DNA from: a candidate division WWE3 bacterium UBA1379
GTDB taxonomy: Bacteria; Patescibacteriota; WWE3; UBA101185; UBA10185
DNA length: 64,000 nt
Reading direction: 5' to 3'
Assembly (NCBI GenBank): GCA_002305475.1
Contig: DBRB01000003.1
Span: 13,360 to 77,359 of the forward strand
The notes under the pieces were generated by a model. It was not told the DNA's origin and ran no database searches. It was given only the letters and a program-made list of their open reading frames with translations. The position numbers and the translations under genes are program-made. Below, one piece after another: positions 3,697 to 29,777 of the stretch. Within the stretch, counting starts at the first letter, position 1. Every line of letters starts with the position of its first letter.

Positions 3697-4017
3697 ATGG
3701 TACAAAACTGCCAGTATTTTCTATTTGACTATATTCCATCAGCATACTTTTTAATCATCGCGTCTCTAATTTTGTTTAATATATGGTTTTTCAGACAAAA
3801 AAGTATATCATGGATAGCTTATTTTCTGGTAGTTGGCGGTTCCTTGTGGAATTTATCCGAAAGAATAATGAATAAAGGCTGTGTTAGAGATTACTGGGAT
3901 TTCTTTGGTTTATTCATATTTAATGCTGCGGATCTGATGATCATATTCGGACTAGTGATTGTTTTTTGCTTGCACAATAAAAAAAGTGTACTATTTACAA
4001 AGGAGGACTTATCATGA
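3697..4017 (+). CDS. lspA: Minimal (106-aa), divergent lipoprotein signal peptidase II (LspA-like).
   Basis: IAYFLVVGGSLWNLSERIMNKGCVRDYWDFFGLFIFNAADLMIIFG is collinear with E. coli LspA [29 protein letters not shown]...FNLADTAICVG. In this sequence the GNxxDR Asp is Glu (WNLSER), while the FNxAD Asp is kept. Four TM segments are present. Confidence 0.6.
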   Translation: MVQNCQYFLFDYIPSAYFLIIASLILFNIWFFRQKSISWIAYFLVVGGSLWNLSERIMNKGCVRDYWDFFGLFIFNAADLMIIFGLVIVFCLHNKKSVLFTKEDLS

Positions 4018-4448
4018 GCAAAACAGTATTAATAGTTGAAGATGAAGCCGATATCAGGGCACTATATTCTGAAGTCTTACGAGACGCAGGTTTCAACGTC
4101 ATAGAAGCTCCGGACGGTACAACGGGACTGGATAGGGCAGCGGAAGGTAATTGGGATATTCTTTTATTGGATATTATTCTTCCCGGAAGTGACGGCGTAA
4201 ACGTCCTGAAAAAGATTAAGGCTAATCCGGCAATAAACAACAAGCCGATCATTTTATTAACAAATTTAGGTGTAGAACACGTCATTAATGAGTGTTTCGA
4301 GATAGGGGCGGACGGATATTTAATTAAATCTGAAATCACACCCGATAAGATAGTTGAGGAAGTTGTCAATTATTTGGGTATACAGCCTAAATCCGGTGAA
4401 AATACTCAGCAAACCGAAAACACAGATACACAGCCATCCGATAACTAA
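4014..4448 (+). CDS. Stand-alone response-regulator receiver (CheY-like) with an acidic Q/T-rich C-terminal tail.
   Basis: The receiver motifs are present: VLIVEDE, the phospho-acceptor region ILLLDIILPGSDG, and the conserved Thr/Lys region PIILLTNLG. There is no output domain. An AAGGAGG RBS sits upstream. Confidence 0.8.
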   Translation: MSKTVLIVEDEADIRALYSEVLRDAGFNVIEAPDGTTGLDRAAEGNWDILLLDIILPGSDGVNVLKKIKANPAINNKPIILLTNLGVEHVINECFEIGADGYLIKSEITPDKIVEEVVNYLGIQPKSGENTQQTENTDTQPSDN

Positions 4449-4456
4449 AAAGCTAT

Positions 4457-5179
4457 ATGGAAATAATTTTTGAAGATAATGACTTGCTGGTTGTAAATAA
4501 GCCTGCAGGTTTAATTGTTAATAATTCTCATACATCCGGTAGCGATACACTGCAGAATATAGTCAGTGAAAACATAACTTTTGAAGAAATGTCTGGTGAA
4601 ATTGATACAGAAGAAATCTATGAAAGTGAATTTAAACAGCGTGGGGGAATTATCCATCGGCTTGATAAGGACACCTCAGGCATAATATTGATTGGAAAAA
4701 ACGAGCCAGCGTTTAATAGAATGCAAAAACAGTTCAAGGAAAGAAGTGTTGAAAAAGAATATTTAGCTATAGTGCTGGGCTTAGTGGAAGAAGAAAAATT
4801 TGAAATCAACGCTCCTATTAAGAGAAATCCTAATAACCGGACGAAGTACGCAATAGTGCGAGACGGTAAGGAGGCTATGACCTCATTTGAGAAAATCAGG
4901 TATTTTACTGACAATAATCAAAATAAGTACACTGTATTAAAAGCATACCCCAAAACAGGCAGAACACATCAGATCAGAGTTCACTTATCTGCTCTGGGCT
5001 TTCCTATAGCAGGGGACAAAATGTACTCAACAAGGCATCAGTTGGAAAATACAAATCATTTTGGAAGATTAATGCTTCATGCAAGAAGTATCAGGTTTAA
5101 TCACCCATCTAGCAATACTGAAATGTATCTAAAAGCAGATATTCCAAGAGAATTTCTGCCGTATTTAGAAAATTTGTAA
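4457..5179 (+). CDS. RluA-family pseudouridine synthase. It has no S4 domain.
   Basis: Catalytic motif HRLDKDTSGIILIGKN with the conserved Asp; also the downstream K(E/D)YLA motif and a basic RTHQIRVHL region, as in RluA/RluD. Confidence 0.8.
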   Translation: MEIIFEDNDLLVVNKPAGLIVNNSHTSGSDTLQNIVSENITFEEMSGEIDTEEIYESEFKQRGGIIHRLDKDTSGIILIGKNEPAFNRMQKQFKERSVEKEYLAIVLGLVEEEKFEINAPIKRNPNNRTKYAIVRDGKEAMTSFEKIRYFTDNNQNKYTVLKAYPKTGRTHQIRVHLSALGFPIAGDKMYSTRHQLENTNHFGRLMLHARSIRFNHPSSNTEMYLKADIPREFLPYLENL

Positions 5180-12862: not shown

Positions 12863-13021
12863 TACTATAGGATAGACTGCTAACCTATAGTATAATTGTC
12901 ATATATTTTTTGTAGGATTGTCATAGTATTTAAATTAATTAATACGATGTCGCTCTAACAATTCTTTAACATTATACCCTGTAGTATTGTCATACTTTTC
13001 TCTGTAGGGTTGTCATACTTT
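12863..13021. repeat. Iteron-like repeat cluster inside an 870-bp AT-rich non-coding island. It holds a 10-bp inverted repeat and three or four direct copies of TGTAG-N3-TTGTCATA.
   Basis: The inverted repeat is ATACTATAGG (12863-12872) / CCTATAGTAT (12884-12893). There is a TTGTCATA core at 12896. Direct repeats TGTAGgATTGTCATAgTAT (12911-12929), TGTAGtATTGTCATAcTTT (12979-12997) and TGTAGgGTTGTCATAcTTT (13003-13021) follow. Confidence 0.6.
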
Positions 13022-13958: not shown

Positions 13959-14143
13959 AAAATGGCTGAAATATTTTTTTACCAAGCCGGTTAGAACATC
14001 CGATGTTTCTGACCGGCAGTTTTTTTATGGTAATATTAATTTAGTGAGTATTTACTGTAGGTATGAATCGGTTTTTCGGCGTGGTTGAGCCAATATCCCG
14101 AATCAGGCCCCAGAATGCCCCAGAATCAATTTTTATTTTTAAG

Positions 14144-15109
14144 ATGAGTAAAGTATCGTCTAAAACAAGTATAAGTGATCTGATTATCCGTTATCTTGAG
14201 CATTGTGAGGTAGAAAAGAACCTCTCACAGAATACCATCAAGATGTATCATTTTTATCTGAATGATTTTGCCGACTGGAGTTCAAAATTTTTAGACAAGG
14301 AATATATTATTTCATCTGACATTGATAGCGAGTTGATTAAAAAATACCGATTAGATTTAAATCGTAGAATCAGTTCAAAGTCCAATGAGGAGTTTAAACG
14401 TTCAACGCAAAAAACATTTCTGGTGGCCCTCAGAGCCTTTCTGAAGTATCTGATTGTAGAAGAAGGTTTGCAGGTACTACCTCCCGATCAGATTATTCTG
14501 GGAAAGTCTGAGGATAGGATACCTAAGGTATTGGAAGAAGATCAATTAAAGAAGTTGTTGGAAGTACAGGACCTAAATAAAAAATCTGGTCTTAGAGATA
14601 AGGCTATCCTTGTTACCTTATTTAGTACCGGTCTTAGGGTCAGTGAGCTGGTGAAACTGAATATTGAGGATATCAACCTGGAAACCGGAGAATTTCCGGT
14701 GATCGGAAAGGGACGTAAGGTCAGAACCGTCTATTTAAGTCCTGCAGCCATAGATTGTATACGTCGTTATTTAAATACGCGTCACGACCCGTTTAAACCG
14801 CTCTTTCTTAGGTATAGTGGCAAACATATGGCTCCCCAGGACTTTGAAGGAGAGTCATTAAGATTAACAGTTAGAAGTGTACAAAGACTGGTAAAAAAGT
14901 ATGTACTGCGTGCCGGTATAGCTGTTGATGCCACACCACATACTCTCCGACATACATATGCAACAGACCTTTTAAGAAACGGTGCCGATCTCAGATCCGT
15001 TCAGGAGCTTTTGGGTCATTCCAATGTCTCCACTACTCAGATATATACTCATGTTACCAATAAACAGCTCAAAGAAATCCATAAGAAATTCCACAAGGAT
15101 ATTGAATAA
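14144..15109 (+). CDS. XerC/XerD-type tyrosine site-specific recombinase. The track ORF starts at 14063; the start is probably the Met at 14144.
   Basis: A core-binding N-domain, then the catalytic block GLRVSELVKLNIEDIN...HTLRHTYATDLLRNGADLRSVQELLGHSNVSTTQIYTHV. This carries the R..HxxR...Y signature. Confidence 0.85.
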   Translation: MSKVSSKTSISDLIIRYLEHCEVEKNLSQNTIKMYHFYLNDFADWSSKFLDKEYIISSDIDSELIKKYRLDLNRRISSKSNEEFKRSTQKTFLVALRAFLKYLIVEEGLQVLPPDQIILGKSEDRIPKVLEEDQLKKLLEVQDLNKKSGLRDKAILVTLFSTGLRVSELVKLNIEDINLETGEFPVIGKGRKVRTVYLSPAAIDCIRRYLNTRHDPFKPLFLRYSGKHMAPQDFEGESLRLTVRSVQRLVKKYVLRAGIAVDATPHTLRHTYATDLLRNGADLRSVQELLGHSNVSTTQIYTHVTNKQLKEIHKKFHKDIE

Positions 15110-22833: not shown

Positions 22834-23088
22834 TTAGAAAGCTCTGGACAGTGCTCTACCAATCAGTATAAGCACTACTGCTCCGATCAGGGCTACTATA
22901 ATGCTGTATATATTAAAACCAGTAACCCCCGGCTGACCAAAAAAATCCATCAGCAGTCCTCCGGTTAAAGCTCCCAGCGTACCTAGGATGATATCTCCTA
23001 AGAGTCCCTGCTGCGAATTAGTTTTCATCAGTACGGAGGCCAGCCAGCCCACTAAGGCTCCGAAAATTAAGAATACTATGATGTTCAT
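22834..23088 (-). CDS. GlsB/YeaQ/YmgE-family small membrane protein.
   Basis: An 84-aa protein with two to three glycine-rich TM helices: MNIIVFLIFGALVGWLASVLM...GDIILGTLGALTGGLLMDFFG. Confidence 0.6.
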   Translation of the reverse strand: MNIIVFLIFGALVGWLASVLMKTNSQQGLLGDIILGTLGALTGGLLMDFFGQPGVTGFNIYSIIVALIGAVVLILIGRALSRAF

Positions 23089-23240
23089 TCACATCACCTC
23101 CTTCGCCTTATATCCATCCTATGAAAACCTATTTAAATACCAATTAGAGGATTGTAATTGAACTGTAAGGTCAGCGGATTTAATAAACTACATATAGATA
23201 ACTATTGAAATATTAATCATGATTAAGTATATTCAATCGT

Positions 23241-23450
23241 ATGGATATAGAATTGGTGTTGAAGGTTCGAAAAATAATTCATGATATTAATTCCCCCCTT
23301 ACTTCCGTAATTGGGTATTCTCAGTTGCTTGAACGAAAACTTCCTGAAGGAAAAGAAAAAGAGTGGTCGCGGAAACTTCATGAAGATTCACTAAGATTAA
23401 AAGATTTAATGCTTGAGTTATCTGATACTGTACCCAAACCCTCTGATTGA
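23241..23450 (+). CDS. Orphan 69-aa HisKA (dimerisation/phospho-acceptor) domain protein with no ATPase domain.
   Basis: The H-box HDINSPLTSVIGYSQLL has the conserved His, and a second helix follows. It overlaps the 3' end of the convergent OmpR regulator by 33 bp. Confidence 0.4.
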   Translation: MDIELVLKVRKIIHDINSPLTSVIGYSQLLERKLPEGKEKEWSRKLHEDSLRLKDLMLELSDTVPKPSD

Positions 23451-24086
23451 ATGGATTAGTTTCTTTTTGAATCCCTTATCCACTTTTTTTCTCAGATAGC
23501 TTATATATACATCCACTACTCTTGTTTCAATATCAAATGAATTCGGCCAGATTCTGTTTAACAGTGTTTCTCTGGATAATACCTTTTCCCTGTTGTTCAT
23601 TAAATGTTCCAGAAGTTTGTATTCCTGCGGTGTAAGCTCAATTTTTCTTGATCCCCGTTTGACCTCCATAGTATCCGTATTGATCTGAAGGTCTTCCACT
23701 TTAAGTATATTATTTTCCGGTTGGTTCTCTTTTAGGCGTGCCTTTACCCTCAGCAAAAGTTCTTCTGAGATAAACGGTTTAGTAACGTAATCATCTGCTC
23801 CGGTTTCAAAAGCATTAATTTTATCCATAGGAGTATTCTTACCGGTTAGAATAATAATAGGTAAAGTCGGCCATTCCTTTTTAATCTGCATCAGAACAGA
23901 CTCACCTTTTACCAGAGGAAGTCCCAGATCCAAAATTACTAGATCAGGTCTGATTCGTTCAATTACTTCCACGGCTTTGGTTCCATCATCCAGAGTTTTA
24001 ACGGAATAACTTTCTTCGACGAATAATTCTTTCAGGTATTCCTGGAGATTCTTATCGTCTTCGATTACTAGAAGTGTTTTGTTCAT
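23418..24086 (-). CDS. OmpR/PhoB-family response regulator (receiver plus winged-helix DNA-binding domain).
   Basis: Receiver LLVIEDD...LVILDLGLP...IIILTGK. The trans_reg_C domain is LTPQEYKLLEHLMNNREKVLSRETLLNRIW...VDVYISYLRKKV...IRGFGY. Confidence 0.9.
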   Translation of the reverse strand: MNKTLLVIEDDKNLQEYLKELFVEESYSVKTLDDGTKAVEVIERIRPDLVILDLGLPLVKGESVLMQIKKEWPTLPIIILTGKNTPMDKINAFETGADDYVTKPFISEELLLRVKARLKENQPENNILKVEDLQINTDTMEVKRGSRKIELTPQEYKLLEHLMNNREKVLSRETLLNRIWPNSFDIETRVVDVYISYLRKKVDKGFKKKLIHSIRGFGYSIR

Positions 24087-24152
24087 AGGCGCATAATATT
24101 ACAATAAATAGTTAATTTCAATTTTATACAGACTTTAATCTTTCAATATATT

Positions 24153-24183
24153 CATATAAAAACACATCCCCAATAACGGGGAT
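24153..24183 (-). terminator. Terminator hairpin between the histidine-kinase and response-regulator genes.
   Basis: ATCCCC-AATAAC-GGGGAT (24166-24183). On the minus strand a T-run follows (plus-strand AAAAACA at 24154-24160). Confidence 0.55.
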
Positions 24184-24440
24184 ATGTTTCTGGTCGCTCT
24201 ATATTTTTTATAGGTAATATTAATTACCATGGTATCTCTCGACACCTTTTATATGCTCTCACTTCCTTGCTGAGAACACATCATCGTAAAGTTGATGTAT
24301 CTCAACCGTACATTTGAAAAATGCGGTTAAGCAGATTTCATCTGTATAGTGAAGATTATCTATATGTTAAAAGCACTGAATTAAGGTGGTGTGATACAAA
24401 TGTTAAAAATATGTTATAAAGGAAACGTTGTTATAGCGCA

Positions 24441-26087
24441 TTATTTCAGGCATGGTAGAAAAACATAGAAGGTACTGCCTTCGCCCAGATCACTTTCCAC
24501 CCAGATATTTCCTTTATGAGCGGAAGCTATTGCTTTTGAAATAAACAACCCCAAACCCAATCCGAAAGTTTTTTGAGTATTTCCTCCGTTTGCCCGGTAG
24601 AAAAGATCAAAAATATGGTTGAGATGCTTTTTCTCTATTCCGATTCCGAAATCTCTGATGGAAATTGTTATGCCACTTTTATCTAGTGATGTGTTAATGA
24701 CCACTTTATCCGCATTCTCAGAATATTTAATTGCATTGTTTAGCAGATTCGATAAAAGATGCGAGATTCTTTTTTCGTCAACATCAACTATACAATCCTC
24801 TTTATTTTCATATATTATTTGGTGGGTGGGATTAATAGGTTGAATGGTGCTGATTACTTTTTTCACCACATCTTTAATATTGATTTTCTGGGTATTAATT
24901 TCCAGACCTCCCGATTTAATTTTTGTAACGTCCAGAAGATCATTTACCAGATCGGACATATCATCAGTTAAGGTATTAATTTTATCGAGATATTCCACAA
25001 ATTCCTCAAGCTCAAGTTTTTTTGCTTTCTGGGTCATGATCTGTGTAAATGCTTTTACTCCGGTCAATGGTGTTTTTAATTCATGGGTTGCGATACCCAT
25101 CCATAAGTCTTTTTGTTTTTCCATGTAGTATCGTTCTGTGACATCCCTTACTATTCCGATTCGTTCTATTGTGCCATCCTGATGCTGAATGGTTTTTTCC
25201 ATTACTTCCCCTACCAGATCTTCATCTCCCTGTTTTTCAATATTAGCTTCCAGAAATACTTCACCTCCGGAGTTTCTTTGTTCATCCAGTAGGTGTTTAA
25301 CATGCGTCCTATCATCCGGACAAATAATACTGATAAAAGGTTTTCCGATCAGATGCTCCCTTTTCACACCTGTAAGAACTTCCGCAGTAGGATTAAGAGA
25401 AGTAATGATGTTTTTTTCATTTAATGTATAGACCATTGCCGGTGCGACTTCAGCTAAGGTCTTTGATCTTTCTTCACTATGCAGAAGCTTAATATCCGTT
25501 TTTACTTTTTTAATATAGTGGCTGATGTGGGTTTCTAGGATTTTGGTTATTTCCATCAGTTCTTTATCTGATTTTGATCGTTTATTGCCGAGGAATTCAA
25601 TTGCTCCTTGTACTTCTTTACCTACATATAAAGGTACAACAAATGCGGTATTTAAATTCAGACTTCTTGCGGGAATAGCCCGGGCTTTACTGGCAGTGTG
25701 GGTAAAGTTTCCAGTCCATTTCGGTTTTCTGGTAAGTACCGCTTTTCCGATACTGCCTTCGCCGGGAGTAAACACGCGTTGTTTAGTGGCTCTTATAAAC
25801 TCAGTATTCTCAAATTCAGGTAAATACCAACCGGTTGTATAAACAATGTTGCTATCATCTCCGCACATCCATAAAAAGACGCTCTTCCATCGATAACTTT
25901 TGCCCAGGATTTTAATAATCCTGTTAAGAGTATCCTCCATGTTGCTGCCATAAGCGAAAGCTTTGGTAATCTGACTGAGAATTCGGAGTTTCTTTTTGGC
26001 ATTTTTCAGCTCGACAATACTAGAGTGTTCGTCTTTCTTTTTTGTCCCCTCAATATTTTGACGAGCTTTCAGATCTGTTAAGCTCAT
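24441..26087 (-). CDS. Cytoplasmic sensor histidine kinase (GAF plus PAS plus HisKA plus HATPase_c), with no TM segment.
   Basis: H-box IATHELKTPLTGVKAFTQIM, N-box NLLNNAIKYS, G1 IRDFGIGI and G2 GLGLGLFISK. The N-terminal 180 aa are GAF-like, followed by a PAS region (VLTGVKREHLIGKPFISIICPDD). Confidence 0.85.
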   Translation of the reverse strand: MSLTDLKARQNIEGTKKKDEHSSIVELKNAKKKLRILSQITKAFAYGSNMEDTLNRIIKILGKSYRWKSVFLWMCGDDSNIVYTTGWYLPEFENTEFIRATKQRVFTPGEGSIGKAVLTRKPKWTGNFTHTASKARAIPARSLNLNTAFVVPLYVGKEVQGAIEFLGNKRSKSDKELMEITKILETHISHYIKKVKTDIKLLHSEERSKTLAEVAPAMVYTLNEKNIITSLNPTAEVLTGVKREHLIGKPFISIICPDDRTHVKHLLDEQRNSGGEVFLEANIEKQGDEDLVGEVMEKTIQHQDGTIERIGIVRDVTERYYMEKQKDLWMGIATHELKTPLTGVKAFTQIMTQKAKKLELEEFVEYLDKINTLTDDMSDLVNDLLDVTKIKSGGLEINTQKINIKDVVKKVISTIQPINPTHQIIYENKEDCIVDVDEKRISHLLSNLLNNAIKYSENADKVVINTSLDKSGITISIRDFGIGIEKKHLNHIFDLFYRANGGNTQKTFGLGLGLFISKAIASAHKGNIWVESDLGEGSTFYVFLPCLK

Positions 26088-26138
26088 AATTGGAGTTTAC
26101 CACATGATTTTTTATGAATATAGAAATGCGGCATATAA

Positions 26139-26660
26139 CTATATGTTTAATTTCATTTGATCTATATGTTTTGCTCCATGCTTTTCCAAAACATTTTTCA
26201 CTTCTGTTTCATTTCCTGGACTGGGAACCACCATCAATAAAATATCTCCTTGTTTAATTCTTTCTTCCATCACTCTGGCCTGTACATCATCAACACCGAT
26301 ACCTTTTAATGCACCCAGTAGTCCTCCAGCCAAAGCTCCGGTAATTGCTCCTGATGCTGTAGATGCAGCCGCACCAGTGATACCAAAAGCTGCAGCTAGT
26401 GGGCCGGCAATAAACAAAGCACCTATTCCGGGAATCGCTAAAGCACCGATCCCCACCAACAGACCCACAATCCCGCCGACAATTCCTCCTGTTTTTGCTC
26501 CTGTTTTAATATCTTCTCCCGTCTGGCTGTTCATCTTTACATTATCTTCCTTAGTAATCACTGAAACATCTGCTTCCGTGTATCCTGCATTTGCAAGTTC
26601 CTGAAGTGCCATATTTGCAAGTTCCGCACTTCCAAATAGTCCGACAATTGTATCCTTCAT
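26139..26660 (-). CDS. Glycine-zipper membrane/stress protein (YflT/DUF1269-like).
   Basis: An N-terminal soluble domain MKDTIVGLFGSAELANMALQELANAGYTEADVSVI, then a long Gly/Ala-rich segment GGIVGGIVGLLVGIGALAIPGIGALFIAGPLAAAFGITGAAAS. Confidence 0.4.
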   Translation of the reverse strand: MKDTIVGLFGSAELANMALQELANAGYTEADVSVITKEDNVKMNSQTGEDIKTGAKTGGIVGGIVGLLVGIGALAIPGIGALFIAGPLAAAFGITGAAASTASGAITGALAGGLLGALKGIGVDDVQARVMEERIKQGDILLMVVPSPGNETEVKNVLEKHGAKHIDQMKLNI

Positions 26661-26681
26661 ATTAGTCCTCCTTAAATTAAT

Positions 26682-27098
26682 TTAATTTTCATCTGATTGG
26701 ATTTCTTTTCGAAGTGCCGCCAATATATTTTCGATAGTGGCCAGCGCCTCGGCTGAACCATTTCTTAACTGTTGTTCCAGCTGATTTAATTGAAATTCCA
26801 CACTGGGATCAATATTTAATTCTCTTGCTTCCTGTCTGATTTCACTTAATAGATTTCGTGTTTCATCAGTGACGTCATTATTCTGAATATCCGATTCGAT
26901 TTGGATTAATTTTCTTTGTATATCAAGTGTATTAATGGTTTCCTCTATATTCTGTTGCGCCTCTCCGAAAATACTTCCCGCTTCATTTGTTATATTCCGT
27001 CCGGTGCGATTATATGCTTCTACTGCTACCAATATCGCAATGACACTGACGATCAGTGCACCTATGGATAATAACGTATGGGTTGATTTTTGATTCAT
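26682..27098 (-). CDS. Membrane-anchored coiled-coil protein, hypothetical.
   Basis: An N-terminal TM helix (LLSIGALIVSVIAILVAV) and Gln/Glu-rich heptad-like repeats. Confidence 0.45.
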   Translation of the reverse strand: MNQKSTHTLLSIGALIVSVIAILVAVEAYNRTGRNITNEAGSIFGEAQQNIEETINTLDIQRKLIQIESDIQNNDVTDETRNLLSEIRQEARELNIDPSVEFQLNQLEQQLRNGSAEALATIENILAALRKEIQSDEN

Positions 27099-27207
27099 AA
27101 CAACTCACCTCCTCATGGGTTAGGATGGGTTAATAATATAAAGGGATAATTAAAAGGCAGTTTATCAGTTGTTATAACTAAGTTAATGATGAAATGTTGG
27201 ATTAGCG

Positions 27208-27609
27208 TTACTGCTGAGCCTTTGTAAATGAACTGACGGTTTCCACTAGCTCGGTTAGCTCAAATGGTTTTCTGATGTAATCATCGGCTTTACTCTCTTT
27301 TATTTCATCTGTAGAGCAATTGTTTGCAGACATCAAAACGATATTCAGATCTCTGTTTTCGGATTTAAGTATTCTGGCAATTTCTCTGCCATCTTCATTA
27401 CCCAATACAATATCTAAAAGAATTAAATGCGGAGAATAGTTTTTAAGACAGGTCAAAAGAGTCTGTGAATCTTCAAATACCGTTGTCTGATAACCTTCTT
27501 CCTCAAGAATGATTTTTATAGCTTCTTTTATAGATGGATCGTCATCAACAATCCAAACAGTCTTCTTATAGTTAAGATTATTAGAATCCGATTTCATGTC
27601 TGAGCACAT
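27208..27609 (-). CDS. Stand-alone response-regulator receiver domain (Spo0F/CheY-like).
   Basis: VWIVDDD, the phospho-acceptor region LILLDIVLGNEDG, and NIVLMSAN; 133 aa with no output domain. Confidence 0.8.
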   Translation of the reverse strand: MCSDMKSDSNNLNYKKTVWIVDDDPSIKEAIKIILEEEGYQTTVFEDSQTLLTCLKNYSPHLILLDIVLGNEDGREIARILKSENRDLNIVLMSANNCSTDEIKESKADDYIRKPFELTELVETVSSFTKAQQ

Positions 27610-27716
27610 ACTAATAATTTTATTACTCTTTACTTTTTTTCACAGTTAAGAATCTGTTAGAAATATATTAAAGGAGTTTTATCCATTGTAAAAGGTATAG
27701 GTGCAGGAAATAACCT

Positions 27717-29777
<2,061 letters not shown>

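What the first reader, a model, noticed from the sequence alone, without database searches (positions are those of the whole stretch)
23241..27609. A possible multi-step phosphorelay from a cytoplasmic kinase through a stand-alone receiver and a HisKA-only mini-protein to an OmpR regulator
The locus holds a soluble GAF-PAS histidine kinase (24441..26087) and an OmpR-type regulator (23418..24086) separated by a terminator-bearing 354-bp gap. A single-domain receiver lies at 27208..27609 and a 69-aa ORF carrying only a HisKA H-box (HDINSPLTSVIGYSQLL) at 23241..23450. That is the component set of a Spo0F/Spo0B-like His-Asp-His-Asp relay. A second orphan receiver lies at 4014..4448. The mini-HisKA ORF could instead be a kinase remnant.
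Basis: inference. Interest (0 to 1): 0.55.

Follow-up and report, generated by a model that had tools for sequence, protein, structure and literature searches.

The report
Conserved kinase-less mini phosphotransfer protein
The 69-codon reading frame is a real, conserved gene for a tiny protein made only of the phosphate-carrying helical hairpin of a histidine kinase; it always sits beside the same regulator gene in a group of tiny-genome bacteria and most likely passes phosphate between two receiver proteins in a stress-response relay.

Summary
All the coordinates and domain calls in the finding are correct. The 69-aa ORF (23241..23450, +) passes Pfam's HisKA threshold. AlphaFold models it confidently as the two-helix hairpin of a kinase dimerisation/His-phosphotransfer (DHp) domain.

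It is not a kinase remnant. Its closest relatives among 1.84 billion representative proteins are 60-92-aa HisKA-only proteins. In 9 of the 10 genomic contexts examined, the gene abuts the 3' end of, or lies beside, an orthologous OmpR-type regulator gene. These contexts come from WWE3-like candidate-phyla bacteria. The His is invariant (17/17) and the frame stays open although synonymous sites are saturated.

An orthologous single-domain receiver is co-located in 7 contexts, once in the same operon as the mini gene. A full kinase is linked in 6, twice overlapping the start of a single-domain receiver gene.

The best reading is a minimal Spo0B/ChpT/PhyT-like phosphotransferase in a kinase → receiver → mini-DHp → OmpR relay. 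That relay autoregulates a small stress regulon through 11-bp-phased TCTWACA repeats. The transfer itself is inferred. A regulator phosphatase or sequestering role remains a serious rival.

Verdict: new variant of a known kind, moderately interesting.

The parts
23241..23450 (+). Mini-HisKA gene: 69-aa DHp-only protein with phospho-acceptor His14 (HDINSPLTSVIGYSQLL). It converges on the regulator gene and overlaps it by 33 bp.
   Evidence: Pfam HisKA 30.6 bits. AF2 pLDDT 95.2 with helices 3-33 and 38-63. Foldseek matches DHp domains. Family of 60-92-aa relatives. Syntenic orthologues.
23205..23233 (+). Promoter-like site for the mini gene (TTGAAA-17-TATATT). The -10 hexamer ends 7 nt before the ATG, so the mRNA may be leaderless.
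   Evidence: Consensus scan only. Similar -10-like hexamers lie 5-7 nt before the ATG in L015 and L017, as read from alignment A5.
23418..24086 (-). OmpR/PhoB-type response regulator (receiver + winged helix), the invariant neighbour of the mini gene.
   Evidence: Pfam. NCBIfam PhoB-like but below the equivalog cut-offs. Orthologues are 68-72% identical in L014-L017.
24093..24121 (-). Promoter-like site for the regulator gene (TTGAAA-17-TATTAT). The -10 hexamer ends 6 nt before the ATG.
   Evidence: The TTGAAAT...TATTAT block is conserved in alignment A6.
24156..24350 (-). Candidate small non-coding transcript between kinase and regulator, ending in a conserved terminator hairpin (24166..24183).
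   Evidence: Conserved repeat box, then a -10-like element, about 150-200 nt, a GGAGCGGCAG-like block and a covarying terminator in window and L014-L017. No conserved ORF. Only a sub-threshold Rfam GcvB match, 28.2 bits against a gathering score of 42.
24379..24418 (-). Site A: four 11-bp-phased TCTWACA-like direct repeats, a candidate binding site of the OmpR-type regulator.
   Evidence: Enrichment of the repeat pair in related loci: 51 observed against 20.4+-4.6 in shuffles.
24441..26087 (-). Cytoplasmic GAF-PAS-HisKA-HATPase_c histidine kinase with a canonical HELKTP H-box.
   Evidence: Present in L014, L015, L019, L020 and L102. Absent from the locus in L017/L018, L003 and L104.
26139..26660 (-). 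YflT-like stress protein gene, probably in one operon with the receiver and the kinase.
   Evidence: Pfam YflT 28.5 bits. Conserved in L014, L015, L017, L019 and L002.
26682..27098 (-). 138-aa protein with an N-terminal hydrophobic segment and a coiled-coil-like remainder. Function unknown.
   Evidence: Only weak Pfam hints. Its position between the receiver and YflT genes is seen.
27208..27609 (-). Single-domain receiver (candidate Spo0F-like intermediate) with the complete Asp/Asp/Ser/Lys active-site set.
   Evidence: Pfam Response_reg 80 bits. Orthologues are 38-43% identical in L014, L015, L017, L102 and L020, and 33% in L104.
27645..27672 (-). Site C: three phased TCTWACA-like repeats upstream of the receiver-...-kinase operon.
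   Evidence: It overlaps a promoter-like site at 27692..27665.
23144..23170 (-). Site B: phased repeats CTTACA-N5-ATTACA-N5-TCTAA between the divergent GlsB-like and mini genes.
   Evidence: Read. The block is conserved in alignment A5. Stronger copies are in L014-L017.
22834..23088 (-). 84-aa GlsB/YeaQ/YmgE-type ('Transgly_assoc') membrane stress protein, a recurrent neighbour of the mini gene.
   Evidence: Pfam 42.8 bits. Adjacent to the mini gene in L003, L014-L019 and the P0006 locus.

Best explanation
The 69-aa ORF encodes a genuine stand-alone DHp (HisKA) domain. It is a helical hairpin that should dimerise into a four-helix bundle carrying His14, and it has no ATP-binding domain, so it cannot phosphorylate itself.

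The most likely role is a minimal dimeric histidine phosphotransferase, working like Spo0B, ChpT or PhyT. The proposed path is: the GAF-PAS kinase phosphorylates the single-domain receiver encoded in its own operon; the receiver passes the phosphoryl group to His14 of the mini-DHp dimer; the mini-DHp passes it to the adjacent OmpR-type regulator.

The phosphorylated regulator would then bind 11-bp-phased TCTWACA repeats. These lie in front of the GlsB-like gene, the receiver/YflT/kinase operon and a small transcript upstream of its own gene, which would give an autoregulated stress regulon.

Shown:
- gene reality, fold and conservation;
- linkage to the regulator and the receiver;
- enrichment of the repeat motif.

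Inferred:
- dimerisation;
- every phosphotransfer step and its direction;
- regulator binding to the repeats.
For: 1. Domain and fold. Pfam HisKA is above threshold with no other domain. The AF2 hairpin has pLDDT 95.2. The best structural matches are DHp domains, with TM 0.7-0.87 normalised to the query and rmsd 1.2-1.7 A. The best PDB sequence matches are HK853, ThkA and KinB.

2. Real family.
- Six of the seven best hits in 1.84 billion representatives are 67-92-aa proteins, 39-61% identical.
- A profile search gives a tight group of 64-85-aa proteins at 71-97 bits, then a gap to 53 bits or less.
- One member is deposited as a hypothetical protein of candidate division WWE3.

3. Selection.
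- His is invariant in 17/17; Pro at H+5 and Gly at H+11 are each 16/17.
- Synonymous sites are saturated (pS 0.69-0.95) while pN is 0.33-0.41.
- A random 69-codon frame stays open with P=0.0097 at this base composition, yet the frame is intact in all lineages seen.

4. Linkage to the regulator. The gene converges on and abuts the orthologous OmpR regulator gene in L014, L015, L016, L017/18, L019, L020, L102 and the P0006 locus, and converges on it across about 550 bp in L003. It lies beside the regulator gene in L104.

5. Relay components.
- An orthologous receiver-only gene is in the window, L014, L015, L017, L020, L102 and L104.
- In L104/L105 the receiver and mini genes lie head to tail 28 nt apart, behind a repeat box.
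- In L102 the kinase gene overlaps the start of a receiver-only gene, and in L020 it abuts one.
- In the window no minus-strand terminator-like site was listed between the receiver gene and the start of the kinase gene.

6. Loss of the kinase-specific residue. The acidic H+1 residue, which Willett & Kirby showed to be needed only for kinase activity (PMC3510030), is kept in only 9/17 members. It is K or N in 4 of the 5 closest relatives. The H+4 residue stays S/T/N in 16/17.

7. Evolutionary intermediates. Proteins of about 200 aa have the same DHp (hhalign probability 99%) but no detectable HATPase_c. One of them, P0006, sits in the same convergent position.

8. Precedents for kinase-derived dimeric phosphotransferases: ChpT (PMC3433190) and the Pak-SdrG-PhyT-PhyR stress relay (PMC5898713).
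Against: - No biochemical or expression data exist.
- L019 and L003 have the mini and regulator genes but no receiver-only gene within 6-10 kb. The invariant pair is therefore mini + regulator, not mini + receiver.
- The local kinase has a canonical H-box and could phosphorylate the OmpR regulator directly, which would make a relay unnecessary.
- Spo0B, ChpT and PhyT all keep a pseudo-catalytic domain. No DHp-only phosphotransferase has been demonstrated. The nearest case, Caulobacter HmrB, is supported by genetics only (PMC11481889).
- The receiver lacks the FATGUY motif seen in several intermediate receivers (PMC9981736).
- H+4 is Ser rather than the canonical Thr/Asn in the window's clade, with unknown consequence.
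Confidence: 0.5

Rival explanations
1. The mini-DHp is a dedicated negative regulator of the adjacent OmpR regulator. It would act as a phosphatase or reverse-transfer sink for the phosphorylated regulator, or by sequestering the unphosphorylated form. No relay through the single-domain receiver would be needed.
For: - The only near-invariant partner is the regulator gene. L019 and L003 have no receiver-only gene nearby.
- The H+4 position, which is required for phosphatase activity in HisKA kinases (PMC3510030), stays S/T/N in 16/17. The kinase-specific H+1 residue is relaxed.
- PhyT also restrains PhyR by complex formation (PMC5898713).
- From my own knowledge, not checked here: the isolated EnvZ DHp domain dephosphorylates OmpR-P in vitro (Zhu et al., PNAS 2000).
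- In L019 and L003 the mini gene follows the stress gene on the same strand, which would fit negative feedback.
Against: - The His is invariant in 17/17. From my own knowledge, it is often dispensable for pure phosphatase activity.
- The orthologous receiver-only gene is co-conserved in 7 of 10 contexts and is co-operonic with the mini gene in L104. This model does not explain either fact.
- H+4 is Ser, not Thr/Asn, in the window's clade.
Confidence: 0.25
2. The mini-DHp works on or with the kinase rather than between receivers. Either it forms a heteromeric DHp complex with the GAF-PAS kinase and damps it, as a micro-protein or RetS-GacS-type inhibitor would. Or it is a split-kinase substrate phosphorylated in trans by that kinase's ATP-binding domain, as in M. 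tuberculosis HK1/HK2-TcrA.
For: - The top structural match is the RetS-GacS DHp hetero-complex 7n0e.
- A kinase is linked in 6 of the 10 contexts.
- A split kinase, HK1/HK2-TcrA, is on record (PMC9321153, Table 1).
Against: - The mini protein resembles its neighbouring kinase only over the 20-aa H-box, at 35% identity (no hit). It is not a recent copy likely to co-dimerise.
- The kinase gene is absent from the locus in L017/L018, L003, L104 and the P0006 locus, while the mini gene persists.
- The local kinase has its own complete DHp.
- An inhibitor would not need an invariant His.
Confidence: 0.13
3. The ORF is a decaying fragment of a former histidine kinase gene and has no function.
For: - It is short, has no Shine-Dalgarno sequence and overlaps the regulator gene.
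- The word-indexed protein search found only one near-identical hit.
Against: - The frame is intact with an invariant His in at least nine divergent lineages whose synonymous sites are saturated.
- Position and orientation are conserved.
- The family scores well above other HisKA fragments.
- The AF2 model is confident.
Confidence: 0.02

Closest known systems
Spo0B (Bacillus subtilis) and ChpT (Caulobacter crescentus), dimeric histidine phosphotransferases
   Same: Both are kinase-derived. A helical hairpin carries the phosphorylatable His and dimerises into a four-helix bundle that shuttles phosphate from one receiver to another (PMC3433190; PMC11481889 summarises both). The component set is also the same: kinase, single-domain receiver, His protein, DNA-binding regulator.
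   Different: - Spo0B and ChpT keep a C-terminal pseudo-catalytic alpha/beta domain. The mini protein is the hairpin alone (69 aa).
- By sequence it is a canonical HisKA. It gave no Pfam hit other than HisKA at E<=1, and neither Spo0B nor ChpT appeared in the PDB sequence search.
- No transfer has been demonstrated.
PhyT (PhyP) of the alphaproteobacterial general stress response: the Pak-SdrG-PhyT-PhyR relay
   Same: It is a degenerate kinase that moves phosphate from a single-domain receiver (SdrG) to the output regulator. It also restrains that regulator, is encoded next to the regulator gene, and controls a general stress regulon (PMC5898713). Here the locus is likewise packed with stress-type genes: GlsB/YeaQ-like, YflT-like and, in relatives, DUF2795.
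   Different: PhyT is membrane-anchored, carries the HRxxN H-box motif rather than the HisKA one (PMC5898713), and keeps a degenerate ATPase domain. Its target is the anti-anti-sigma factor PhyR, not an OmpR-type DNA binder. The lineages are unrelated, so any resemblance is convergent.
HmrB of Caulobacter crescentus (108-aa helical hairpin, proposed atypical HPt)
   Same: It is a small stand-alone hairpin predicted to dimerise into a four-helix bundle, encoded beside a (hybrid) kinase, and its His residues are needed for function in vivo (PMC11481889).
   Different: HmrB has no recognisable HisKA signature and no structural match. It is restricted to Caulobacteraceae and is supported by genetics only. 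The mini protein here is an unmistakable HisKA domain with an invariant H-box His.
Split histidine kinase HK1/HK2-TcrA of Mycobacterium tuberculosis
   Same: The His-bearing domain is encoded as a separate polypeptide beside an OmpR-type regulator gene (PMC9321153 lists the system; details are from my own knowledge of Shrivastava et al. 2006-2007).
   Different: There a separate ATP-binding protein (HK1) is encoded alongside. Here no stand-alone HATPase_c gene is present, and the only linked kinase is complete in itself.

Membership tests
HisKA (PF00512) DHp domain | Profile match above Pfam's gathering score | tested here: met
   30.6 bits against a cut-off of 26.9, E=3.6e-7. Relatives score 31.1 bits (L003 ORF) and carry precomputed PF00512 hits.
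HisKA (PF00512) DHp domain | Conserved phospho-acceptor His in an H-box (H-x-x-x-x-P) | tested here: met
   His14 is invariant in 17/17 and Pro at H+5 is 16/17.
HisKA (PF00512) DHp domain | Two-helix hairpin fold | tested here: met
   AF2 pLDDT 95.2 with helices 3-33 and 38-63. Foldseek matches RetS, GacS, ZraS, CpxA and ERS1 DHp domains.
HisKA (PF00512) DHp domain | Homodimeric four-helix bundle | not testable with these tools
   Only single-chain prediction is available.
Functional sensor histidine kinase | ATP-binding catalytic domain (HATPase_c with N, G1, G2 boxes) | tested here: not met
   The protein ends 6 residues after helix 2, and there is no HATPase_c hit at E<=1.
Functional sensor histidine kinase | Conserved acidic residue at H+1, needed for autophosphorylation (PMC3510030) | tested here: not met
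   It is Asp in the window protein but acidic in only 9/17 family members (K, N, S, R or G elsewhere).
Spo0B/ChpT/PhyT-type dimeric phosphotransferase | His-bearing hairpin derived from a kinase DHp | tested here: met
Spo0B/ChpT/PhyT-type dimeric phosphotransferase | C-terminal pseudo-catalytic (CA-like) domain | tested here: not met
   Absent in the 60-92-aa family. Present in degenerate form only in the roughly 200-aa relatives P0006, P0019 and P0029, which have no HATPase_c hit. P0006 aligns to a PhoR model through the start of the CA region.
Spo0B/ChpT/PhyT-type dimeric phosphotransferase | Sequence homology to the Spo0B or ChpT families | tested here: not met
   Only HisKA was reported by Pfam at E<=1. 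Spo0B and ChpT are not among the PDB sequence hits at E<=0.01.
Spo0B/ChpT/PhyT-type dimeric phosphotransferase | Encoded together with a single-domain receiver and an output regulator | tested here: met
   Regulator in 9/10 contexts and receiver-only gene in 7/10. Receiver and mini genes are co-operonic in L104.
Spo0B/ChpT/PhyT-type dimeric phosphotransferase | Transfers phosphoryl groups between two receiver domains | not testable with these tools
   Needs in vitro phosphotransfer assays.
Monomeric HPt domain (PF01627) | Single-chain four-helix bundle with an HxxKG-type motif | tested here: not met
   No Hpt hit. The model has only two helices. The motif is HDINS.
Pseudogene / kinase remnant | Frame disrupted or not conserved in relatives | tested here: not met
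   The frame is intact and positionally conserved in all syntenic relatives. pN is below pS, with pS saturated.
OmpR/PhoB-family response regulator (23418..24086) | Receiver domain plus winged-helix Trans_reg_C | tested here: met
   96.3 and 92.4 bits.

The most novel reading that the evidence does not exclude
The 60-92-aa HisKA-only proteins would be the smallest natural histidine phosphotransferases: a bare DHp dimer, the end-point of a series running from kinase to pseudo-kinase (about 200 aa) to hairpin. Together with a Spo0F-like receiver and an OmpR regulator, they would form the core of a general-stress phosphorelay in ultra-small candidate-phyla (WWE3-like) bacteria. Expression would be coupled to the regulator through convergent, overlapping transcription and through a regulator-dependent small RNA.
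Probability: 0.4. Interest if true: 0.65.

Novelty: new variant of a known kind. Interest (0 to 1): 0.55.

Why it matters
If the bare DHp hairpin does shuttle phosphate between receivers, three things follow.

- The pseudo-catalytic domain kept by Spo0B, ChpT and PhyT would not be needed for phosphotransferase function. This gives a minimal, easily purified model for DHp-receiver recognition.
- It would document a clear evolutionary route from kinase to phosphotransferase.
- Bacteria with extremely reduced genomes would be shown to invest in a four-step relay rather than a plain two-component pair. This implies a need for extra control points in their stress response.

It would also rescue many short 'HisKA domain-containing' ORFs from being dismissed as fragments.

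Tried and rejected
- **Word-indexed protein search with the single 69-aa query.** It found only the same gene from the same organism (L001), and the exact look-up found nothing. The family appeared only in the exhaustive HMMER search.
- **Metagenome contig scan with family alignments.** The third, using pattern L[TS][TS]VIGY[SA]Q, returned 80 loci. None was a mini-family member: 75 matches lay in kinase ORFs of 396-1150 aa and 5 in ORFs cut off by a contig end. It gave no information on the mini family.
- **AF2 model of the roughly 200-aa relative P0006, built from a 3-sequence alignment.** pLDDT was 49. That is too poor to test whether its C-terminal half is a CA-like fold, so no fold search was run.
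- **FATGUY motif of intermediate receivers (PMC9981736).** It is absent from the receiver-only orthologues, which have LMSA at the end of beta4. This does not discriminate, because Spo0F also lacks it.
- **Literature searches for 'HisKA-only' and 'DHp-only' proteins.** They found no paper on such proteins.
- **NCBIfam.** It has no model for this family.
- **L103 (P0044).** This family-like 83-aa protein lies in a LarB/LarC-type operon with no regulator gene. I treated it as an outlier.
- **Repeat-motif match at 12954..12970.** It lies in a different repeat-rich region near an integrase gene and was judged a chance match.
- **Residue covariation between the mini protein and the receivers.** Not attempted, because about 10 loci are too few.


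Full report

Yes. One search lists every ORF at the stated coordinates. Pfam gives these assignments:
- 23241..23450 (+), 69 aa: HisKA only, 30.6 bits against a gathering score of 26.9, E=3.6e-7.
- 23418..24086 (-): Response_reg + Trans_reg_C, an OmpR type.
- 24441..26087 (-): GAF_2-PAS-HisKA-HATPase_c, with no hydrophobic segment by inspection.
- 27208..27609 (-): receiver only.
- 4014..4448 (+): receiver only.

The 354-bp gap between kinase and regulator contains the hairpin ATCCCC-N6-GGGGAT at 24166..24183. On the minus strand it is followed by GTGTTTTTAT, so the kinase and regulator genes are separate transcription units.

A phmmer scan of all window ORFs found no other kinase or receiver in the 64 kb.

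The mini gene is on the opposite strand to the regulator gene, and the two converge with a 33-bp overlap.

**2. Remnant or gene?**

The word-indexed search found only the same gene from essentially the same organism (L001 matches the window). The exhaustive HMMER search of 1.84 billion cluster representatives was decisive:
- The best hits are not kinases. They are short proteins of 72, 92, 83, 76, 70 and 67 aa, 39-61% identical.
- About ten further hits are 60-83-aa proteins. All start with Met and end a few residues after helix 2.
- A profile search gives a tight group of 64-85-aa proteins at 71-97 bits, then a gap to 53 bits or less.

In a 17-sequence alignment the His is invariant. Pro at H+5 and Gly at H+11 are each 16/17, and a family-specific Trp at the start of helix 2 is 13/17.

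One member (P0005) is deposited as a hypothetical protein of candidate division WWE3 (KKS16890.1 and others) and occurs on 43 contigs. The window therefore most likely comes from a WWE3-like member of the candidate phyla radiation.

**3. Genomic context**

In the syntenic loci, the segment between gyrA and gyrB holds these genes in order:
- a GlsB-like gene (-)
- the mini gene (+)
- the OmpR regulator gene (-)
- the GAF-PAS kinase gene (-), not always present
- a YflT-like gene (-)
- the receiver-only gene (-)

This order is seen in L014 (455-kb contig), L015, L016 (short contig) and L017/L018. In L017/L018 the kinase gene is missing, but the mini, regulator and receiver genes remain.

More distant loci look like this:
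- L019: YflT, GlsB-like (+), mini (+), regulator (-), and a divergent PAS-GAF kinase that is not a hybrid kinase.
- L020: mini (+) converging on a receiver-only → regulator operon (-), next to a divergent kinase → receiver-only operon.
- L102 (NCBI GCA_964385105.1): mini (+) converging on the regulator gene (-). Upstream, the kinase gene overlaps the start of a receiver-only gene.
- L104/L105: the regulator gene (-) is divergent from an operon with the receiver-only gene followed 28 nt later by the mini gene. No kinase lies within 7 kb.
- L003 (regulator 56% identical): regulator (+), an 82-aa HisKA ORF (-) at 31.1 bits, and a GlsB-like gene (-). No kinase or receiver-only gene was recognised among the ORFs within 10 kb.
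- The roughly 200-aa relative P0006 occupies the same convergent position beside an OmpR regulator gene, with GlsB-like genes and a receiver-only gene nearby.
- Only L103 (P0044) lacks a regulator gene.

Counting the window, regulator linkage is 9/10, receiver-only 7/10 and kinase 6/10.

**4. Selection**

Between the window and L014-L017, synonymous sites are saturated (pS 0.69-0.95). Non-synonymous differences are 0.33-0.41 for the mini gene, giving pN/pS of 0.38-0.58, which is an upper bound on dN/dS. For the regulator gene pN is 0.11-0.20. The mini gene therefore evolves faster than the regulator but is constrained.

At the window's base composition, a random 69-codon frame stays open with P=0.0097. 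It is nevertheless open, in register and with the His, in every lineage.

**5. Structure**

AF2 with the 16-sequence family alignment gives pLDDT 95.2, with helix 3-33, a four-residue turn and helix 38-63. Foldseek's best PDB matches are DHp domains of RetS/GacS (7n0e), ZraS, CpxA and ERS1. TM scores normalised to the query are 0.7-0.87 and rmsd is 1.2-1.7 A. Foldseek E-values are weak (0.1 or above), so the match rests on TM-score and rmsd.

A profile search of PDB sequences hits HK853, ThkA and KinB but not Spo0B or ChpT. The protein is thus a complete DHp protomer and nothing else. It cannot bind ATP.

**6. How it most likely works**

Four lines of evidence point to a phosphoryl shuttle between receivers.

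(a) The His is invariant. The acidic H+1 residue, which Willett & Kirby showed to be required only for kinase activity (PMC3510030), is kept in just 9/17 members and is K or N in four of the five closest relatives. H+4 stays S/T/N in 16/17. This is the pattern expected if autophosphorylation has been abandoned but chemistry at the His toward receivers has been kept.

(b) The receiver-only gene is orthologous across loci (38-43% identity in most, complete active site). It is co-operonic with the mini gene in L104.

(c) Where gene order is informative, the kinase gene is coupled to a receiver-only gene and not to the OmpR regulator gene. It overlaps the start of one in L102 and abuts one in L020. 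In the window, the receiver, 138-aa, YflT-like and kinase genes follow one another on the minus strand. No minus-strand terminator-like site was listed between the receiver gene and the start of the kinase gene; the only one lies inside the kinase gene's 3' end.

(d) The nearest longer relatives are roughly 200-aa proteins with the same DHp (hhalign probability 99%, E=3e-18). Their C-terminal half gives no HATPase_c hit even at E<=5. It aligns to PhoR only through the start of the catalytic domain. This is the Spo0B/ChpT/PhyT kind of degenerate kinase, and one of these proteins sits in the same genomic slot.

The proposed path is kinase → single-domain receiver → His14 of the mini-DHp dimer → OmpR regulator. 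It is directly analogous to Pak-SdrG-PhyT-PhyR (PMC5898713) and KinA-Spo0F-Spo0B-Spo0A. All transfer steps are inferred.

**7. Output of the pathway (found on the way)**

Alignments of the intergenic regions showed conserved 11-bp-phased direct repeats of TCTWACA. Repeats with this spacing are typical of OmpR/PhoB-family sites (my own knowledge).

In the window they lie at three places, all on the minus strand:
- Site A, 24379..24418, just after the kinase stop codon.
- Site B, 23144..23170, between the GlsB-like and mini genes.
- Site C, 27645..27672, upstream of the receiver operon.

In relatives they lie in front of the GlsB-like, YflT-like, DUF2795, receiver, kinase and regulator genes, and in front of the receiver → mini operon of L104.

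Across nine loci the two-repeat pattern occurs 51 times, against 20.4+-4.6 (maximum 33) in 200 dinucleotide-preserving shuffles. Within the window alone the count is not above chance: 12 against 9.0+-2.9. The argument therefore rests on position and cross-species conservation.

The locus looks like a compact, autoregulated stress regulon.

**8. Rivals**

A regulator-specific phosphatase or sequestering role is the main alternative (0.25). The only near-universal partner is the regulator, the H+4 residue is conserved, and PhyT shows that such proteins can be bifunctional. It does not explain the invariant His or the co-conserved receiver.

Action on the kinase, either by hetero-oligomerisation as in RetS-GacS or as a split-kinase substrate as in HK1/HK2-TcrA, is less likely (0.13). 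The mini protein resembles its neighbouring kinase only across the 20-residue H-box, and it persists in loci without a kinase.

The remnant hypothesis is effectively excluded (0.02).

**9. Comparison with known systems and novelty**

By sequence and fold the protein is a member of the HisKA domain family. It is not a histidine kinase, because it has no catalytic domain. It is not a member of the Spo0B, ChpT or HPt families by sequence.

In function it most resembles the kinase-derived dimeric phosphotransferases, but without the pseudo-catalytic domain that all characterised examples keep. The nearest precedent for a hairpin-only phosphotransferase is Caulobacter HmrB. That protein has no HisKA signature and is supported by genetics only (PMC11481889).

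My literature searches found no paper on HisKA-only or DHp-only proteins. NCBIfam has no model for the family, and database names are generic or 'hypothetical'.

I rate it a new variant of a known kind, with interest about 0.55. The gene family and its linkage are solid and previously undescribed. The mechanism is plausible and readily testable, but unproven.

Noticed in passing
window 24156..24440 (-); L014 6898..7203, L015 7020..7441, L016 1410..1676, L017 6922..7216: A conserved unit lies between the kinase (or YflT) stop codon and the regulator promoter. It runs: TCTWACA repeat box, a -10-like element, about 150-200 nt (purine/GGA-rich in relatives, with a conserved GGAGCGGCAG block), then a terminator hairpin with covarying stems. 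It is present even where the kinase gene is missing. It has no conserved ORF, and its only Rfam match is a sub-threshold GcvB hit (28.2 against 42 bits). It may be a regulator-dependent small RNA.
   Followed up: partly
window 23144..23170, 24379..24418, 27645..27672 (all -); many sites in L014-L020, L102, L104, L003: Direct repeats of TCTWACA phased at 11 bp lie in the promoter regions of the stress, receiver, kinase and regulator genes. They are enriched 2.5-fold over shuffles across nine related loci (51 against 20.4+-4.6). They are the likely operator of the OmpR-type regulator.
   Followed up: partly
window 23418..23450; L014 6219/6223, L016 721/726, L017 6231/6232, L019 6213/6214, L020 6204/6206: The mini and regulator genes converge with a 33-bp overlap in the window and with gaps of 0-4 nt in relatives. 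This leaves no room for terminators, so their mRNAs must overlap at the 3' ends. The hairpin at 24166..24183 could terminate a mini transcript running antisense across the whole regulator gene.
   Followed up: no
window 23205..23233 (+) and 24121..24093 (-): The -10-like hexamers end 7 nt (mini gene) and 6 nt (regulator gene) before the ATG. Neither gene has a Shine-Dalgarno sequence, although the neighbouring GlsB-like gene has GGAGG. Both may be translated from leaderless mRNAs. This also favours ATG 23241 over the GTG 23256 start used by the public gene call (P0001).
   Followed up: partly
window 4014..4448 (+): The second single-domain receiver (144 aa) lies between a signal-peptidase-II-like gene (3697..4017) and a pseudouridine synthase gene (4457..5179). 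No repeat box lies nearby, and nothing links it to the relay locus.
   Followed up: partly
window ~12911..13021 (+): Three direct repeats of about 20 nt (TGTAGnnTTGTCATAnT) lie in an 870-bp AT-rich gap upstream of a 101-aa ORF and a phage-type integrase gene (14063..15109). This may be the border of a mobile element or an attachment-site region.
   Followed up: no
L017 9069..12231: The gyrB gene of this WWE3 relative carries an intein (Intein_splicing Pfam hit; product of about 1094 aa). The window's gyrB (27717..29717, 666 aa) does not.
   Followed up: no
L002 3291..3895 (-): In a more distant Patescibacteria relative (regulator 52% identical), the slot downstream of the regulator gene holds an 89-aa ORF without an H-box and a DUF5674 gene, not a mini-HisKA gene. 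The mini gene is therefore not universal among orthologous regulator loci.
   Followed up: partly
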